A stretch of DNA of 64,000 nt from Tagaea sp. (GCA_965279525.1 CBDIIB010000005.1:256001-320000), one strand, 5' to 3'. Shown: positions 21,423 through 42,598, numbered from the stretch's first letter. Notes: generated by a model from the letters alone, not told the origin. Numbers and translations: made by a program.

Positions 21423-21431
21423 TGTGGATAA
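21423..21431. promoter_or_regulatory. DnaA box upstream of gapR
   Basis: Perfect TGTGGATAA in the DUF1244-gapR spacer. Confidence 0.55.
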
Positions 21432-35738: not shown

Positions 35739-37943
35739 ATGCCGCTCCCCCGCCTTTCCGCCCCGCTGTCCGACGCGACGGTGAACCCCGCGCCTCCGCT
35801 GAGCGCCGATCCCGATGCGGCCCCGCCGCAGCGGCTCGAGGTCGTGTCCGATTTCAAGCCCGCCGGCGACCAGCCGGCGGCGATCGCCGAAATCACGCAA
35901 GGCCTGCTGCGCGGCGAAAAGGACCAGGTCCTGCTCGGTGTCACGGGTTCCGGCAAGACCTTCACGATGGCGCATGCGATCCAGAACCTGCAGCGCCCCG
36001 CCCTGATCCTCGCCCCCAACAAGACTCTCGCCGCCCAGCTCTACGGCGAGATGAAGCTGTTCTTTCCGAACAACGCGGTCGAGTATTTCGTCAGCTATTA
36101 CGACTATTACCAGCCCGAGGCGTACGTGCCGCGCTCGGACACGTATATCGAGAAGGAAAGCTCGGTCAACGAGCAGATCGACCGGATGCGCCATTCGGCG
36201 ACGCGCGCCCTGCTCGAGCGGCAGGACACGATCATCGTCGCGTCGGTGAGCTGCATCTACGGCATCGGCTCGGTCGAGACCTATTCGTCGATGACGCTGA
36301 AGCTGGCCGCAGGCCAGCGCATGGACCGCAACGAACTGCTGCGCGAGCTGGTAAAGCTCCAGTACAAGCGAAACGAGGTCGCCTTCCAGCGCGGCACGTT
36401 CCGCGCGCGCGGCGACGCGGTCGAGATCTTCCCGGCGCACTGCGAAGACCGCGCGTGGCGCGTGTCGATGTTCGGCGACGAGATCGAGGCGATCTGGGAG
36501 TTCGATCCGCTGACCGGCGAGAAGAAGGCCACGCTGGAATCGGCCAAGCTCTACGCCAATTCGCACTACGTCACGCCGCAGCCCACGCTCGATCAGGCGA
36601 TCTCGCAGATCAAGATCGAGCTCAAGTCGCGGCTGGCCGAGCTCAACGCGGCGGGCAAGCTGGTGGAAGCGCAGCGCCTGGAGCAGCGCACGACATTCGA
36701 CGTCGAGATGATGGCAGCGACCGGCAGCTGCGCCGGCATCGAGAACTATTCGCGCTTCCTGACCGGCCGCAAGCCGGGCGAACCGCCACCCACACTGTTC
36801 GAGTACCTGCCCAAGAATGCCGTGCTGATCTGCGACGAGAGTCACGTGATGGTTCCGCAAATCGGCGGCATGTACAAGGGCGACTACGCGCGCAAATCGA
36901 CGCTGTCGGAATACGGTTTCCGCTTGCCGTCCTGCATCGACAACCGCCCCCTCAAATTCGAGGAATGGGACGCGATGCGCCCGCAGACGGTGTTCGTGTC
37001 TGCCACGCCCGGCCCGTGGGAACTGGAACGCACCAAGGGCGTGTTCGTCGAGCAGGTCATCCGTCCCACCGGTCTTGTCGATCCGCCCTGCGAGATCCGC
37101 CCGACCGAGCGGCAGGTCGACGACCTGCTGGGAGAACTCAAGGCGCTCGCAAAGAGAGGCATGCGCGCACTGGTCACCACGCTGACCAAGCGCATGGCCG
37201 AGGACCTGACCGAATACCTGCACGAGAACGGCGTGCGCGTGCGCTACATGCACTCGGACGTCGAGACGCTCGAACGCATCGAGATCATCCGCGACCTGCG
37301 CCTTGGCGCCTTCGACGCGCTGATCGGCATCAACCTGCTGCGCGAGGGCCTCGACATCCCCGAATGCGGGCTAGTGGCGATCCTCGACGCCGACAAGGAG
37401 GGCTACCTGCGTTCGCGCACGTCGCTGATCCAGACGATCGGGCGCGCCGCGCGCAACGTCGACGGCCGCGTGATCCTCTACGCCGACAGGATGACCGATT
37501 CGATGAAGGCGGCACTGGCCGAAACCGACCGGCGACGGACCAAACAGGTCGCCTACAACACGGAACACGGCATCACGCCGGAATCGATCCGCAAGGGCAT
37601 CGGCGACATCCTGGGCAGCGTCTATGAGCGCGACCGCGTGACGGTCGGCACCGGCGACGACGGCACGCCCCATCTGGTGGGCCATAATCTGCGTGCCCAC
37701 ATTGCCGCCCTCGAAGGGCGCATGCGCGACGCGGCCGCCAATCTCGAATTCGAGGAAGCGGCACGCCTGCGCGACGAGATCAAGCGCCTCGAGGCGATGG
37801 AGATGGAACTGCCCGGCGCCCCCAACGGCAAGGGCGGCTACAACCCGACCGAAGGGGCTGCTCGCCCGCGCTCGACCGGTGGCGCCGTCAATTCGCGCAA
37901 GGGCCGCGCCCGGCGGCCCCCGCCGGGCGGTGCGCGCAAGTGA
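35739..37943 (+). CDS. uvrB: Excinuclease ABC subunit B
   Basis: [44 protein letters not shown] and a UVR domain. Confidence 0.97.
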
Positions 37944-39139
37944 AGCCGATCTTCCTGCCGCTCGGCACGACGCTGGCGGTGCAGGTGCTGGCAAGCGGGG
38001 CAAGCCTGACCGCCGCAGTGCTGGCCCCGCTCATCAGCGCCGATCTGGGCGTGCCGGCGTCGAGCGTCGGTTTCTACGTGGCCTTGCTCTATGGGTCGGC
38101 GGCGGTGGCTGGCCTGGCGAGCGGCGGCATCATCGCGCGCTTCGGTCCGCTGCGAACGATGCAGAGCGGCCTCGTGTTCGGCGCCCTTGCCGCCCTGTCG
38201 CTTTCCCATGCCTCGCTGCCCGGTGCGATGCTCGCGGCATTGCTCGGCGGCTTCAGCCTGGGGCCGACGACGCCGGCCTCTTCGGCAATCCTCGCGCGCG
38301 CGACCGATCCTTCGAACCGCAACCTCGTCTTCTCGATAAAGCAGACGGGCGTGCCGGCCGGATTCATGGTCGCCGCCCTCGGTCTGCCGCAACTCGCCCT
38401 CGCGTTCGGCTGGCGGGGTGCGTGCCTGTGCGTGGCGGCACTGCTCGCCTTGGCCGCGATCGCGGTAACCCCGCTGCGTCCCCGCTTCGACGACCGGCGC
38501 GAAGGCTCCACGCTCTTCTCGCCGCGCGCCCAGCTCGTCGATCCGCTGGTGCGCGTCTGGCGACAGGTCGAGATGCGCAATATCTCGTTCGCGTCCTTCG
38601 CCTATTCGGGCCTGCAGGGATCGCTCGCGGGCTTCATGATCGTCTTCCTGCTGCACGACACCAAGCTCGACCTCGTCGCCGCCGCCGCGGTGCTGGCCTG
38701 CGCGCAGGCCGCCGGCATCGGGGGCCGTGTCGTCTGGGGGTTCGTCGCAGACCGGCTTGGCCGGCCGGGCACCGTGCTCGCCGCACTCGGCATCGCGATG
38801 GCGGGGTTCGCGGCCTTGATGGCGCTCGGTGCTTCGACGATGCCCTACGGCGTGCTGATTGCCGCCAGCATCGCGTTCGGCGGAACGGCGATGGCCTGGA
38901 ACGGCGTGTTCCTGGGCGAAGTGGCGCGCCTCGCCGCACCCGGACGCACCGGCGAGGCGACGGGTGCGACCGGCCTTTTCACGTTCGGCGGTGTCGCCAT
39001 CGTGCCTGGAATATTCACCACGATCGTTTTCGCGACCGACAGCTATGTCGCGGCCTATCTTCTTGCCGGTGCGCTGCCGGGGCTCGTGGGCATCGCGCTG
39101 TTGCGCGGGCGCACGCATGCGGGCATATCGGAACGATGA
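37940..39139 (+). CDS. MFS transporter
   Basis: About 12 TM segments, SIKQTGVP and [11 protein letters not shown] motifs. GTGA overlap with uvrB. Confidence 0.85.
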
Positions 39140-39909
39140 ATCCTCCGCCTGCCCTTCCGCGCACGGCCCTCGTCACCGGCGGCGCCAGACGCCTGGGTGC
39201 CGCTCTCGTGCGTGCCCTTGCCGCCGACGGCTTCGCCGTCGCCATCCACTATCGCGAAAGCCGCGCCGAAGCAGAAGCGCTCGCCGCCGAGATCGTGGCC
39301 GCGGGCGGGCGGGCGACGGCATTGCATGCGGATTTGGCCGTCGAGGCATCCGTCCTGGAACTGGCGGCCGCCGCGAATGCCGCCTTCGGCCCGGTCGGAG
39401 TGCTCGTCAACAATGCCTCTGTCTTCGAACGCGACGAGGTGGAAAGCGCGACGCGCGCCAGCTGGGACGCGCATCTCGAAGTCAACCTGCGGGCACCTTT
39501 CGTGCTGGGCCAGTCGCTCGCGCGCAATCTTCCGGGCAATGCCGAGGGCGCGATCGTCAACCTGATCGACCAGCGCGTCTGGAACCTGACGCCGCACTTC
39601 ACCAGTTATACGGTCGCCAAGGCCGGCCTGTGGACGCTGACCCAGACGATGGCGCTGGCACTTGCGCCACGCATCCGCGTCAATGCGATCGGGCCGGGCC
39701 CGACCATCGCCAGCGCTCGGCAGGATCCGGCGCAGTTCGCCCGCCAGGTCGCAAGCGTGCCGCTGCAGCGCGGCCCCGCACTCGAAGAAGTGGCGCAAGC
39801 ACTTCGCTTCATCCTGTCCGCGCGCTCGATGACCGGCCAGATGCTGGCGCTCGACGGCGGCCAGCATCTCAACTGGGGTGCGCCCGGCCGGCACCAGCCG
39901 GAGGAATGA
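39136..39909 (+). CDS. SDR oxidoreductase (FolM/pteridine reductase-like)
   Basis: TGGARRLG, NNASVF, DQRV and YTVAK motifs; adjacent to folB. Confidence 0.85.
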   Translation: MNPPPALPRTALVTGGARRLGAALVRALAADGFAVAIHYRESRAEAEALAAEIVAAGGRATALHADLAVEASVLELAAAANAAFGPVGVLVNNASVFERDEVESATRASWDAHLEVNLRAPFVLGQSLARNLPGNAEGAIVNLIDQRVWNLTPHFTSYTVAKAGLWTLTQTMALALAPRIRVNAIGPGPTIASARQDPAQFARQVASVPLQRGPALEEVAQALRFILSARSMTGQMLALDGGQHLNWGAPGRHQPEE

Positions 39910-40328
39910 ACCTGTCGACTCGCAAACCCCTGCCCGACAACGTCGTGCCGCTTGCGCCTGCGGACCGGCCGGTCCGCAAGATCCTGATCCGCGATCTGGT
40001 GCTGGCGACCGAGATCGGCGTGTTCCGCCGCGAGAAGGGAAAGCGCCAGCGCGTGCGCTTCAACATCGAGCTTGGCGTGATCGACCGGCCCCCGCGCCAG
40101 GACCGCAGGGCGGAAGTTGTCTGCTACGACCGGATCGTCGTCGGCCTGCGTGCGCTCGTTGCCGAGGGCCACGTGAACCTCGTCGAGACCCTTGCCGAGC
40201 GCGCGGCAAGCCTCTGTCTGGCGATCCCGTCGGCACTCTATGTGCGTGTTCGGATAGAGAAACTCGACGTCTACAAGGATGCCGCCGCCGTCGGCATCGA
40301 GATCGAACGGCACCGCGCGGCCCGCTAA
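39906..40328 (+). CDS. folB: Dihydroneopterin aldolase
   Basis: IRDL...IGV...E....QRVRFNIEL, CYD, HVNLVETLAE, EKLD and VGIEIER motifs. Confidence 0.88.
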   Translation: MNLSTRKPLPDNVVPLAPADRPVRKILIRDLVLATEIGVFRREKGKRQRVRFNIELGVIDRPPRQDRRAEVVCYDRIVVGLRALVAEGHVNLVETLAERAASLCLAIPSALYVRVRIEKLDVYKDAAAVGIEIERHRAAR

Positions 40329-40441
40329 ATCGCGCCAGTTGTGCACACGCCCGGTCCACTGTCGCAAAAATGGCGGAATTCTGCGGTTTCTTAAGAGAAT
40401 ATGAAGCCCATGTGACACAAGGGGATACCAAAAATATTGCG

Positions 40442-40454
40442 AATCAATAGATTA
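40442..40454 (+). promoter_or_regulatory. IHF binding site
   Basis: AATCAA-TAGA-TTA matches WATCAANNNNTTR and is preceded by an A/T tract. Confidence 0.6.
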
Positions 40455-40529
40455 TCGGAGTCTGCCTAAATCGCGGGCAAGATGGCCAAGATTGCGGTTA
40501 ATGCCCGATTCGACTGGGTCGGGACTCGG

Positions 40530-40564
40530 TTCTCCACAAAGTTATCCACAAGAATCGTGGATAG
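40530..40564. promoter_or_regulatory. Cluster of three DnaA boxes
   Basis: TTCTCCACA-aag-TTATCCACA-agaat-CGTGGATAG: 1, 0 and 2 mismatches to consensus; third box inverted. Confidence 0.8.
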
Positions 40565-40687
40565 TCAGCCGACCGATTTGGCGGGATGCCCCGTCCCGGG
40601 CACGACGGTGGCAGAAGCGCCACAGCGCCTCCGCAAGATTTGTAGTACTTGCCAGCATCGCACCGGAAGCTTTACGCAATTTCAGCC

Positions 40688-42598
40688 ATGAGCACGGCAG
40701 GCGACGACCAGAACTACGATCTCGATACGCCACCCGCCCTCGCTGCGGAGGGTGCCGGCGTCCTGCGGGCGGCGTTGCCGACGCTGCCGCTCACGCCAGG
40801 CGTCTACCGGATGCTCGATGCCAAAGGCGACGCGCTTTATGTCGGCAAGGCTCGTGCGCTCCGCAAACGCGTTGCCCAATACCTCCAGTTCGACCGGATG
40901 CCGAACCGCCTGCTGCGGATGGTGTCGGAAACGCGCCGGCTCGAGATCGTCACGACGCATACCGAGGTCGAGGCGCTGCTTCTCGAGAGCAATCTCATCA
41001 AGCGACTGATGCCGCGCTACAATGTGTTGCTGCGCGACGACAAGTCGTTTCCCTATATTGCGCTGATCGAAGACCATGACTTTGTCCAGGTCACCAAGCA
41101 TCGCGGCAGCCGCGATCGCAAAGGGCGGTATTTCGGGCCGTTCGCGTCCGCCGGTGCAGTCAACCAGACGCTGACGGCCATGCAGCGCGCATTCCTGCTG
41201 CGCTCCTGTTCCGACGCGATCTTCGGCGCGCGCACGCGCCCCTGCCTGCTCTTCCAGATCAAGCGCTGCTCGGCTCCGTGCGTGGGGCGCATCTCGAAGG
41301 ACGACTACGCGAAACTCGTCGACGAGGCGGTCGATTTCCTCGAAGGCCGCTCGCACGACGCGCAGGGCGAACTCGCGGCGAAGATGCAAGTTGCCGCCGA
41401 CGCAATGGATTTCGAGACGGCCGCGATGTATCGCGACCGCATCCGCGCGCTTACGGCCGTGCAGGCCCGACAGGACATCAATGTCGAGGGGCTTGGCGAC
41501 GCCGATATCGTCGCGATCCACGCCGAAGGCGGCCAGACCTGCATCCAGGTCTTCTTCTTCCGGGGCGGCCGCAACTACGGCAACCGCGCCTATTTCCCGC
41601 GCCACGACCGCAATCTGGCGACCGGCGAGGTGCTCGCCGCGTTCCTCGGCCAGTTCTATTCCGACAAGCCGTCGCCGCCGACCGTGGCGCTGTCCGAAGA
41701 CGTGCCCGAGCGCGACCTGCTGGAGCAAGCGCTGGGAACCCGCGCGGACAGGCGCGTGCGCATCCTCGTGCCCGAGCGCGGCGACAAGCGCAAACCCGTC
41801 GACCATGCACTTGCCAACGCACGCGAGGCGCTGGCCCGGCGGATGGCGGAAAGCGGCGCCCAGTCAAAGCTGCTTGATGGCGTCGCCGCCGCCTTCGGCC
41901 TTGAAGCACCCCCCAAGCGCATCGAGGTCTACGACAACAGCCATATCCAGGGGACCAACGCGATCGGCGGCATGATCGTCGCGGGGCCGGAAGGCTTCAT
42001 GAAGGCCCAGTACCGGAAATTCAACATCCGGGGCCCGGGCAAGTCCGATACGGGTGCCGGCGGCGACGACTACGCGATGATGCGCGAGGTCTTCGAGCGG
42101 CGCTTCTCGCGTGCGCTGCGCGAGGACGCGGGACGCGACGGCGGCACCTGGCCGGATCTCGTGCTCGTCGACGGCGGCCCCGGACAGCTGAGCTCGGTGA
42201 TGGGCGTGCTGGCCGAACTCGGCATCGACGATCTCAACGTCGTCGGGATCGCCAAGGGGCCGGACCGCGATGCCGGGCGCGAGCGGTTTTTCATGCCCGG
42301 GCGCGAGCCGTTCCAGCTCGAACCGCGCGACCCCGTCCTTTACTACCTGCAGCGCCTTCGCGACGAGGCACACCGCTTCGCCATCGGCGGCCACCGTGCG
42401 CGGCGCAGCAAGGGGCTGGAAAAATCGGCGCTCGACGAAGTTCCGGGCATCGGCCCGCGCCGAAAGAAGGCGCTTTTGCTGCATTTCGGGTCCGCTGCGG
42501 CAGCCAAGCGCGCCGGACTGGCCGATCTCGAGGCCGTCGAAGGCGTCGGCAAGGCCGCAGCCAAAAAAATCTATGACCACTTCCACGGCGGCGGGTAA
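40688..42598 (+). CDS. uvrC: Excinuclease ABC subunit C
   Basis: GIY-YIG-type [46 protein letters not shown] and HhH motifs. Confidence 0.97.

What the first reader, a model, noticed from the sequence alone, without database searches (positions are those of the whole stretch)
40329..40687. DARS-like replication-control element upstream of uvrC: three DnaA boxes, an IHF site and five GANTC sites
Seen: on the minus strand CTATCCACG-attct-TGTGGATAA-ctt-TGTGGAGAA, i.e. opposed boxes 5 bp apart and then a tandem box 3 bp away. Also a consensus IHF site (40442-40454), GANTC at 40441, 40458, 40507, 40523 and 40552 (the last in the box spacer), and TTAA-N7-TGAA at 40391. Established: E. coli DARS1 (near uvrB) and DARS2 (near mutH, IHF/Fis-stimulated) use a three-box core to regenerate ATP-DnaA. 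As I recall it, the core has the same 5/3-bp spacing, which needs checking. CcrM methylates GANTC in alphaproteobacteria. Inference: an alphaproteobacterial DARS or datA-like locus, possibly gated by cell-cycle methylation. I know of no characterised DARS in this class.
Basis: partly seen in the sequence, partly recalled or inferred. Interest (0 to 1): 0.8.

Follow-up and report, generated by a model that had tools for sequence, protein, structure and literature searches.

The report
DARS-like DnaA–IHF module before uvrC
The non-coding gap before the DNA-repair gene uvrC holds binding sites for the replication initiator DnaA and the DNA-bending protein IHF, laid out as in the E. coli elements that recharge DnaA, and the layout is kept across many Alphaproteobacteria, where no such element has been described.

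Summary
Window 40530-40564 carries three DnaA boxes. Read on the minus strand they are box I, 5 bp, inverted perfect box II, 3 bp, box III. That is exactly the core geometry of E. coli DARS1 and DARS2, which I read from the K-12 genome. It is the only such site in this 4.35 Mb genome and lies about 0.9 Mb from the GC-skew origin.

The same geometry matched in 191 of 401 sampled genomes of the class, against 0 for a reversed control. In 19 of 30 fetched loci it lies directly upstream of uvrC.

It is part of a roughly 230-bp module with fixed spacing: a distal DnaA box at about -190 and an IHF consensus at -88 to -86. The IHF site sits midway between the distal box and the box I/II junction, as in E. 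coli DARS2.

The module also occurs away from uvrC. This argues against a role only as a uvrC operator.

Best reading: a Fis-independent DARS2-type DnaA-reactivating element (about 0.5). Its activity is untested.

The evidence for methylation gating is weak. I found no paper on a DARS in Alphaproteobacteria. This scan noted the same module earlier in another genome (e1-5201874).

The parts
40339..40347 (+). Distal DnaA-like box TTGTGCACA, in the same orientation as boxes II and III, 191 bp before box III
   Evidence: A box with at most 2 mismatches lies at -191 to -186 in 25 of 28 alphaproteobacterial uvrC-upstream loci. Five of its columns are invariant in alignment A1.
40365..40405 (.). Block conserved within the genus (AAAAATGGCGGAATTCTGCGGTTTCTTAAGAGAATATGAAG). 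Its role is unknown.
   Evidence: Genus alignment. No TTAA-N7-TTAA-like site lies at a fixed position across the 28 loci from the class.
40442..40454 (+). IHF consensus AATCAATAGATTA, starting 88 bp before box III. Its centre is 105 bp from the distal box and 105 bp from the box II/I spacer.
   Evidence: A match with at most 1 mismatch, in the same orientation, starts at -88 to -86 in 22 of 28 loci; 8 are perfect. An IHF-alpha gene is present in the genome.
40463..40479 (.). Inverted repeat TGCCTA...GGGCA (class consensus TGCCTA-N5/6-TAGGCA) between the IHF site and the core. What binds it, or whether it forms a structure, is unknown.
   Evidence: Alignment A1. 81.5% of cells are paired and 8 cells show changes on both sides, but 6 to 22 of 500 shuffles reach the observed values. 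It is also present in non-uvrC copies of the module.
40507..40511 (.). GATTC (a GANTC site) 19 bp before box III. This is the GANTC best conserved within the genus.
   Evidence: By eye, kept in 14 of 18 same-genus loci in the alignment. A CcrM-like methyltransferase is encoded in the genome.
40530..40538 (+). DnaA box III, TTCTCCACA (1 mismatch)
40542..40550 (+). DnaA box II, TTATCCACA (perfect consensus), 3 bp after box III in the same direction
   Evidence: Seven of its nine bases are invariant and two nearly invariant in A1.
40552..40556 (.). GAATC (a GANTC site) spanning the 5-bp box II/I spacer
   Evidence: A GANTC lies at this place in 11 of 29 alphaproteobacterial uvrC loci, against 4 of 78 other rows.
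40556..40564 (-). DnaA box I, CTATCCACG on the minus strand (2 mismatches), opposed to box II across a 5-bp spacer
40585..40625 (.). Block conserved within the genus, downstream of the core, with two short inverted repeats and an invariant GCCACA. Unexplained.
40649..40676 (+). Putative uvrC promoter (TTGCCAG, 13 nt, GCTTTACG), 85 bp after box I. This is a guess.
   Evidence: The block is conserved within the genus. The likeness is to a Caulobacter sigma-70-type consensus that I recall, not one taken from a call. The simple E. coli-type scan found no + strand promoter.
40688..42598 (+). uvrC
   Evidence: Pfam GIY-YIG, UVR, UvrC RNase H and HhH domains

Best explanation
This is a DARS2-type DnaA-reactivating module that works without Fis.

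Inferred mechanism: ADP-DnaA binds the perfect box II and recruits further DnaA to box I (head-to-head across 5 bp) and to box III (head-to-tail across 3 bp). IHF bends the DNA at a site that lies midway, 105 bp each way, between the box I/II junction and a distal DnaA box. The bend brings DnaA bound at the distal box against the core complex. This takes the place that Fis and box V occupy in E. coli DARS2. The head-to-head pair then releases ADP, and the freed DnaA rebinds ATP.

Shown here: the sites, their geometry and their conservation.
Inferred: that DnaA and IHF bind them, that the DNA loops, and that nucleotide exchange occurs.
For: 1. The core geometry is identical to both E. coli DARS cores, which I read from NC_000913. 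DARS1 is TTATCCACT-attcc-TGTGGATAA-cca-TGTGTATTA. DARS2 is TTATTCACC-ttttc-TGTGGATAG-agt-TGTGAAGAA. The window reads CTATCCACG-attct-TGTGGATAA-ctt-TGTGGAGAA. Passages of PMC6868365 state that boxes I and II are opposed with a 5-bp space, that II and III point the same way, and that DARS1 box II is a full consensus box. PMC5742627 calls the head-to-head I/II pair the prominent feature of DARS sites.
2. The geometry pattern is specific. In E. coli K-12 at up to 3 mismatches it matched four places, at the DARS1 and DARS2 cores or within about 320 bp of them; the reversed control matched 0.
3. It is single-copy in this genome and lies outside the origin.
4. It is conserved. All 19 same-genus genomes whose gap matched keep the boxes while the spacers vary. 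In the class, 191 of 401 genomes match, against 0 of 401 for the control. Three of 5 genomes without a match still carry a diverged or partial copy before uvrC.
5. Module spacing is fixed to within a few bp in 28 loci from many families. The distal box is present in 25 of 28 and the IHF site in 22 of 28. In contrast, the distance from the core to the uvrC start varies from 21 to 443 bp.
6. The layout matches E. coli DARS2. There the IHF 13-mer centre is 104 bp from the I/II spacer and 100 bp from the perfect box V (box V is described in PMC8682772). In the window both distances are 105 bp.
7. The module is portable. Of 11 alphaproteobacterial loci not in the uvrC-upstream arrangement, 7 keep a distal box, 4 keep the IHF site, and 7 (by eye) keep the inverted repeat.
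8. The genome encodes DnaA with Leu290, Phe239, Lys243, Arg285 and Arg399 conserved, an Hda-like protein and IHF-alpha.
Against: - There is no biochemical or genetic evidence of any kind.
[quoted passage not shown] A Gln sits one residue later.
- The IHF 13-mer and the distal box are both flipped relative to the IHF 13-mer at the matching distance and box V in E. coli DARS2.
- Fis, which is essential for DARS2, is reported only in gamma-proteobacteria related to E. coli (PMC4245941 passage), so activation would have to work differently.
- The distal box, boxes III and II, and the IHF site between them also resemble the datA recipe, in which the boxes share one direction around an IHF site.
- Distance from hemE, taken as a stand-in for the origin, varies from 0.16 to 0.45 of a replichore in 4 genomes.
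- The usual position before uvrC fits a transcriptional role as well.
Confidence: 0.5

Rival explanations
1. The module is a datA-like or titration site. It binds DnaA, assisted by IHF, in order to hydrolyse DnaA-bound ATP or simply to sequester DnaA. It would then restrain initiation instead of promoting it.
For: - An IHF site lies between DnaA boxes that share one direction (the distal box, then boxes III and II). This recalls the datA order box 7, box 2, IHF site, box 3, where all essential boxes point the same way (PMC5742627 passages).
- The site holds a perfect high-affinity box and is the strongest box cluster in the genome.
Against: - The invariant feature across the class is the opposed I/II pair with a 5-bp spacer. 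That pair is the signature of DARS and is absent from the essential datA boxes.
- The I/II junction, IHF site and distal box are spaced as in DARS2.
Confidence: 0.2
2. The boxes and the IHF site are only a complex operator through which DnaA controls uvrC transcription. This would couple excision repair to the replication cycle, with no effect on the nucleotide state of DnaA.
For: - The core lies directly upstream of uvrC in one orientation in 19 of 30 loci from the class scan, and in all 11 loci of the named-genome scan that carry uvrC.
- In several loci the core is only an estimated 21 to 48 bp from the uvrC start, so it would overlap a promoter there.
- The E. coli DARS1 boxes lie about 385 bp upstream of uvrB in its upstream spacer. 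That they were first read as uvrB regulators is my recollection, not taken from a call.
Against: - Spacing inside the module is fixed to within a few bp, yet the distance to uvrC ranges from 21 to 443 bp.
- The module, with its distal box, IHF site and inverted repeat, also occurs beside unrelated genes. In at least 4 of those loci the longest downstream ORF is on the opposite strand.
- In one family the core lies between the 3' end of uvrC and pgsA.
- In the window the boxes end 85 bp before the likeliest -35 element.
- The two roles could coexist, as they may at E. coli DARS1.
Confidence: 0.15
3. The module is a DnaA/IHF nucleoprotein landmark with some other function. Examples would be chromosome organisation, or a methylation-sensing checkpoint read by other factors through the conserved inverted repeat.
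For: - The conserved inverted repeat TGCCTA-N5/6-TAGGCA has no assigned binding partner.
- GANTC sites are locally enriched and a CcrM-like enzyme is encoded.
- DARS-type cores recur beside DNA repair and replication genes in several classes.
Against: - No positive evidence points to any particular alternative.
- The identity with the DARS core is left unexplained by this reading.
Confidence: 0.1

Closest known systems
E. coli DARS2 (IHF- and Fis-dependent DnaA-reactivating sequence near mutH)
   Same: - The three-box core has the same order, orientation and 5/3-bp spacers.
- The IHF site lies on the box III side. In E. coli the two 13-mers lie 59-71 and 75-87 bp beyond box III; here the site lies 76-88 bp beyond it.
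- A further high-affinity DnaA box lies about 176-182 bp beyond box III. In E. coli this is box V, with a 176-bp gap.
- The IHF site is roughly equidistant from the I/II junction and from that box.
   Different: - I identified no Fis sites, and Fis is reported only in relatives of E. coli.
- Here box II is a perfect consensus box. In DARS2 it has 1 mismatch.
- The IHF 13-mer and the distal box are inverted relative to the E. coli IHF 13-mer at the matching distance and box V.
- An extra conserved inverted repeat lies between the IHF site and the core.
- The neighbouring gene is uvrC instead of mutH.
- Activity is untested.
E. coli DARS1 (bioD-uvrB spacer)
   Same: - The core geometry is identical and box II is a perfect TTATCCACA.
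- In this genome the I/II spacer is nearly the same (attcc in E. coli, attct here).
- Both lie next to a nucleotide-excision-repair gene.
   Different: - DARS1 needs no IHF or Fis (PMC11724364 passage).
- DARS1 lies before uvrB with box III on the uvrB side. Here the module lies before uvrC with box I on the uvrC side.
- The alphaproteobacterial module has a fixed IHF site and distal box.
[quoted passage not shown]
   Same: A non-coding cluster of DnaA boxes with a single essential IHF site between boxes that share one direction.
   Different: All essential datA boxes point the same way. Here the most conserved feature is the opposed I/II pair.
DARS-like cores beside priA/rpmE, xseA or hemN-like genes in Beta- and Gammaproteobacteria
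   Same: They share the same 28-bp core pattern. Many also have an IHF consensus at a fixed distance.
   Different: - In those loci the IHF 13-mer is in the opposite orientation and starts at -99 to -96.
- Box I ends in A there, against G or C in Alphaproteobacteria.
- The neighbouring genes differ.

Membership tests
DARS (DnaA-reactivating sequence, E. coli DARS1/DARS2 type) | Three DnaA boxes, with I and II opposed across a 5-bp spacer and II and III in the same direction across 3 bp | tested here: met
   Window 40530-40564 compared with DARS1 and DARS2 read from NC_000913. The definition comes from PMC6868365 passages.
DARS (DnaA-reactivating sequence, E. coli DARS1/DARS2 type) | A high-affinity (consensus) box II that nucleates assembly | tested here: met
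   TTATCCACA at 40542-40550. Box II is invariant or nearly so in the 28-locus alignment.
DARS (DnaA-reactivating sequence, E. coli DARS1/DARS2 type) | A non-coding chromosomal site distinct from oriC | tested here: met
   The site is intergenic. The cumulative GC-skew minimum lies at C5 1.11-1.27 Mb, next to hemE at 1.231 Mb, whereas the site is at C5 0.2965 Mb.
DARS (DnaA-reactivating sequence, E. coli DARS1/DARS2 type) | DARS2 type: an IHF-binding site at a set distance on the box III side | tested here: met
   A perfect consensus at 40442-40454. The site is present at -88 to -86 in 22 of 28 loci. The E. coli positions are. This is sequence evidence only; binding is not shown.
DARS (DnaA-reactivating sequence, E. 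coli DARS1/DARS2 type) | DARS2 type: Fis-binding sites essential for activation | not tested
   I searched for neither Fis sites nor a fis gene. The literature passage says Fis is confined to gamma-proteobacteria related to E. coli.
DARS (DnaA-reactivating sequence, E. coli DARS1/DARS2 type) | DnaA residues needed for DARS-dependent ADP release (E. coli Gln208 and Leu290) | tested here: inconclusive
   Leu290 is conserved. Gln208 aligns with Tyr, with a Gln at the next position.
DARS (DnaA-reactivating sequence, E. coli DARS1/DARS2 type) | Promotes ADP dissociation from ADP-DnaA; deletion delays initiation and oversupply stimulates it | not testable with these tools
   This needs biochemistry and genetics.
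datA (site of DnaA-ATP hydrolysis) | All essential DnaA boxes in one direction, flanking an IHF site | tested here: not met
   The distal box and boxes III and II share one direction around the IHF site. However, the conserved box I is inverted and abuts box II.
oriC | Lies at the GC-skew switch and, in this class, beside hemE (the hemE link is recalled knowledge) | tested here: not met
   The skew falls steadily across the window. The site is 0.93 Mb from hemE and the skew minimum.
DnaA-regulated promoter (operator boxes) | Boxes at a fixed position relative to the -35/-10 elements or start of the regulated gene | tested here: not met
   The estimated distance from the core to the uvrC start ranges from 21 to 443 bp. 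The module also occurs beside other genes.

The most novel reading that the evidence does not exclude
The module is an ancient proteobacterial DnaA-recharging device. In Alphaproteobacteria it runs without Fis. IHF folds the DNA so that DnaA on the distal box, 105 bp from the bend, is pressed onto the head-to-head box I/II pair, 105 bp on the other side, and this triggers ADP release. CcrM methylation of the GANTC in the I/II spacer and of the GANTC just upstream makes the element switch state when the replication fork passes. The result would be a cell-cycle timer for initiation in bacteria that replicate once per cycle.
Probability: 0.15. Interest if true: 0.9.

Novelty: new variant of a known kind. 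Interest (0 to 1): 0.75.

Why it matters
DnaA reactivation by DNA (DARS) has been characterised experimentally only in E. coli. The passages I read describe DARS2 as conserved among relatives of E. coli. One review sentence says that similar sequences exist in many proteobacteria.

In none of my paper searches did I find a route that regenerates ATP-DnaA in Alphaproteobacteria, the class that includes the main model for once-per-cycle replication.

A single-copy module of about 230 bp, defined to within a few bp and present across many families, gives a concrete target. It can be deleted, moved, mutated box by box and assayed with purified DnaA and IHF. It also offers a natural experiment on how a DARS core can be activated without Fis.

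Tried and rejected
- **oriC:** rejected on GC skew and on the positions of hemE and dnaA.
- **Known RNA family:** the Rfam scan of 39500-41500 gave only one chance-level hit, in the coding region.
- **CtrA site:** No TTAA-N7-TTAA-like site lies at a fixed position in the 28 loci.
- **Second, DARS2-like copy in this genome:** none at up to 7 of 27 mismatches.
- **Inverted repeat as a structured element:** the covariation test was weak, with 6 to 22 of 500 shuffles reaching the observed values. I left it unexplained.
- **E. coli-type promoter and terminator scan:** it found one minus-strand promoter-like hit and no terminator, which was not informative.
- **Transcript mapping:** all listed public runs are stored only as assembled contigs, and no run on record as RNA holds more than a small share of the stretch. 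A transcription start cannot be read from them, so I did not run read laying.
- **Conserved distance from the origin:** it is not conserved, ranging from 0.16 to 0.45 of a replichore in 4 genomes.
- **Original DARS paper (Fujimitsu 2009):** the library does not hold it. I could not see which species its conservation statement covers.

Full report
**What is in the window.** The finding covers the whole 359-bp gap between a FolB-domain gene (stop at 40328) and uvrC (ATG at 40688). uvrB lies only 2.7 kb upstream, at 35739-37943.
- On the + strand the gap reads TTCTCCACA (40530-40538), aag, TTATCCACA (40542-40550), agaat, CGTGGATAG (40556-40564).

**Is the cluster more than chance?**
- Single boxes are common. 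The window has 4 with at most 1 mismatch, against 2.4 expected. The 4.35 Mb genome has 178.
- The cluster is not common. Among triples of boxes (at most 2 mismatches each, within 60 bp) this one has 3 mismatches in total, and every other triple in the genome has at least 5.
- With the exact geometry it is the only site in the genome at up to 7 of 27 mismatches, against 0 in a reversed-sequence control.

**It is not the origin.**
- The window is C5:256001-320000 of a 5-contig assembly.
- Cumulative GC skew on C5 falls to a minimum at 1.11-1.27 Mb, where hemE lies (1.231 Mb). It peaks on C4 near 0.54 Mb.
- dnaA is at C5 0.763 Mb. The site is at C5 0.2965 Mb.

**Comparison with E. coli, from sequence I fetched.**
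- In NC_000913 the DARS1 core is TTATCCACT-attcc-TGTGGATAA-cca-TGTGTATTA. The DARS2 core is TTATTCACC-ttttc-TGTGGATAG-agt-TGTGAAGAA.
- Order, orientation and the 5- and 3-bp spacers are the same as in the window. As in DARS1, box II is a perfect consensus box.
- Passages of PMC6868365 and PMC5742627 give these same features as the definition of the DARS core. They name the head-to-head I/II pair as what sets DARS apart from oriC and datA.
- In E. coli K-12 the geometry pattern at up to 3 mismatches matched four places, at the DARS1 and DARS2 cores or within about 320 bp of them. The reversed control matched none.

**Conservation within the genus.**
- The gap matched in 18 of 20 same-genus genomes.
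- In more distant species only two islands still match by BLAST. One is the box region.
- All 19 genomes with a match, the window's own included, keep the geometry.
- The boxes are nearly constant, while both spacers vary (aag, aac, agt; agaat, cgaat, tgaat, gaaat, ggttc, gactt).
- A record title and matching coordinates place the genus as Tagaea (Rhodospirillales).

**Conservation across the class.**
- A degenerate pattern at up to 2 mismatches matched 191 of 401 genomes sampled evenly from the class. Among good-quality genomes it matched 155 of 337. The reversed control matched 0 of 401.
- 18 genomes had two or more matches, and two of those are overlapping readings of one site.
- Two of the sampled genomes (G264, G064) are unpublished. 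They are counted in these tallies but not quoted.
- Of the 30 loci fetched, 19 have the core directly upstream of uvrC with box I nearest the gene (18 of 29 without the window's own locus). One family has the core between the 3' end of uvrC and pgsA.
- 191 of 401 is a lower bound. I examined 5 genomes without a match. One has the distal box, IHF site and boxes III and II but no box I. Two have a degenerate core in place. Two have nothing before uvrC.

**Distribution in named genomes.**
- Its hits come from Alpha-, Beta- and Gammaproteobacteria.
- The 11 loci that carry uvrC, all from alphaproteobacterial records by title, have the core before it. Their records include Azospirillum, Inquilinus, Pelagibius, Telmatospirillum, Stellaceae, Acetobacteraceae and Rickettsiales.
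- The five enterobacterial and vibrio hits lie beside uvrB, as DARS1 does.
- The remaining loci mostly lie beside priA, xseA, hemN-like or MatE genes.

**The core is part of a larger module.** I took 30 alphaproteobacterial uvrC loci. Two were dropped, one at a contig end and one with 3 pattern mismatches. One of the remaining 28 comes from an unpublished genome. Positions are counted from the first base of box III.
- A DnaA-like box in the orientation of II and III lies at -191 to -186 in 25 of 28.
- An IHF consensus with at most 1 mismatch, always in the same orientation, starts at -88 to -86 in 22 of 28. Eight are perfect. Only scattered single hits occur elsewhere in the 460 bp scanned.
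- An inverted repeat, TGCCTA-N5/6-TAGGCA, lies at about -68 to -50. Its covariation is weak.
- In the window, the centres of the distal box (40343), the IHF site (40448) and the I/II spacer (40553) are 105 bp apart on each side.
- In E. coli DARS2, the IHF 13-mer beside the PciI site is 104 bp from the I/II spacer and 100 bp from the perfect box that I take to be box V. The IHF 13-mer and the distal box are both flipped relative to that E. coli 13-mer and box V.

**Is it just a uvrC operator?**
- Spacing inside the module holds to within a few bp, while the estimated distance from the core to the uvrC start ranges from 21 to 443 bp.
- Of 11 alphaproteobacterial loci where the core is not in the uvrC-upstream arrangement, 7 keep a distal box, 4 keep the IHF site and 7 (by eye) keep the inverted repeat. 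Their neighbours are unrelated genes, and in at least 4 loci the longest downstream ORF is on the other strand.
- In the window the likeliest uvrC promoter lies 85 bp after box I. I inferred it from a genus-conserved block and a recalled Caulobacter consensus.
- These points favour an autonomous element. They do not exclude a second role in uvrC control, as may hold at E. coli DARS1.

**Supporting and opposing details.**
- The genome encodes an Hda-like protein, IHF-alpha and one CcrM-like methyltransferase. The last scores 592 bits against the Caulobacter CcrM model, below its strict cut-off.
- DnaA keeps Leu290, Phe239, Lys243, Arg285 and Arg399. However, Gln208, which is needed for DARS activity in E. 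coli, aligns with Tyr.
- GANTC is locally enriched. Only the site at 40507 is well kept in the genus (by eye, 14 of 18). The spacer GANTC occurs in 11 of 29 alphaproteobacterial uvrC loci, against 4 of 78 other rows. Methylation gating therefore remains a weakly supported idea.

**Literature.**
- Searches for DARS with Caulobacter, "DARS-like", DnaA box with uvrC and alphaproteobacteria, DnaA-reactivating sequence with alphaproteobacteria, DnaA ChIP-seq with Caulobacter (two searches), and DnaA nucleotide exchange with Caulobacter and IHF found no report of such an element in this class.
- Passages say the DARS2 architecture is conserved in beta- or gamma-proteobacteria close to E. coli.
- One review sentence says that sequences similar to DARS1 and DARS2 are conserved in many proteobacterial species, citing Fujimitsu 2009. 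I could not read that paper.
- Earlier notes of this scan describe the same uvrC module in another genome, and DARS-like modules before rpmE and ung elsewhere. Those are AI notes, not independent evidence.

**Verdict.** The module is a conserved, single-copy DnaA/IHF site; my confidence in that alone is about 0.9. Its most likely function is DARS2-type reactivation of DnaA without Fis (about 0.5). The rivals are a datA-like site (0.2), control of uvrC only (0.15) and some other role (0.1).

Noticed in passing
loci L062-L141, analysed: DARS-type cores in Beta- and Gammaproteobacteria recur beside DNA repair or replication genes. By eye on the output: priA in 13 loci, xseA in 5, sbcB-like in 1, and uvrB in enterics and vibrios. 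Together with uvrC in Alphaproteobacteria and mutH at E. coli DARS2, this association with repair genes may be more than coincidence.
   Followed up: partly
loci L067, L071, L079, L084, L088, L101, L104, L113, L131: In the beta- and gamma-proteobacterial loci a perfect IHF consensus in the opposite orientation starts 96-99 bp before box III. A fixed IHF site therefore seems general to these modules, with a class-specific position and orientation.
   Followed up: partly
window 40463-40479; same place in alignment A1: An inverted repeat (consensus TGCCTA-N5/6-TAGGCA) is conserved between the IHF site and the core across families and in non-uvrC copies. I know of no binding partner. The test for a hairpin or cruciform was inconclusive.
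   Followed up: partly
locus L184 (genome G030), upstream of uvrC: Boxes II and I both carry the same A-to-C change in the CCACA core (ATATCCCCA opposed to ATATCCCCG). This looks like a parallel change in the two head-to-head sites.
   Followed up: no
window 35739-42598: uvrB and uvrC lie only 2.7 kb apart on the same strand, separated by an MFS transporter gene and a FolB-domain gene.
   Followed up: no
window 21423-21431; genome C5:1804360-1804383 and C5:1563658-1563742: Other perfect DnaA boxes occur in the genome. One is a close opposed pair (TCATCCACA and TTATCCACA, starts 15 bp apart) at C5 1.804 Mb. None has the DARS geometry.
   Followed up: no
window 40585-40625: A genus-conserved block after the core has two short inverted repeats and an invariant GCCACA. 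Its function is unknown.
   Followed up: no
loci L039, L040, L041, L045, L083, L095, L132, L141: A subset of families has CTTGAC about 111 bp before box III, 17 nt ahead of the WATCAA of the IHF site. A promoter may overlap the IHF site there. The window's genus lacks this motif at that place.
   Followed up: no
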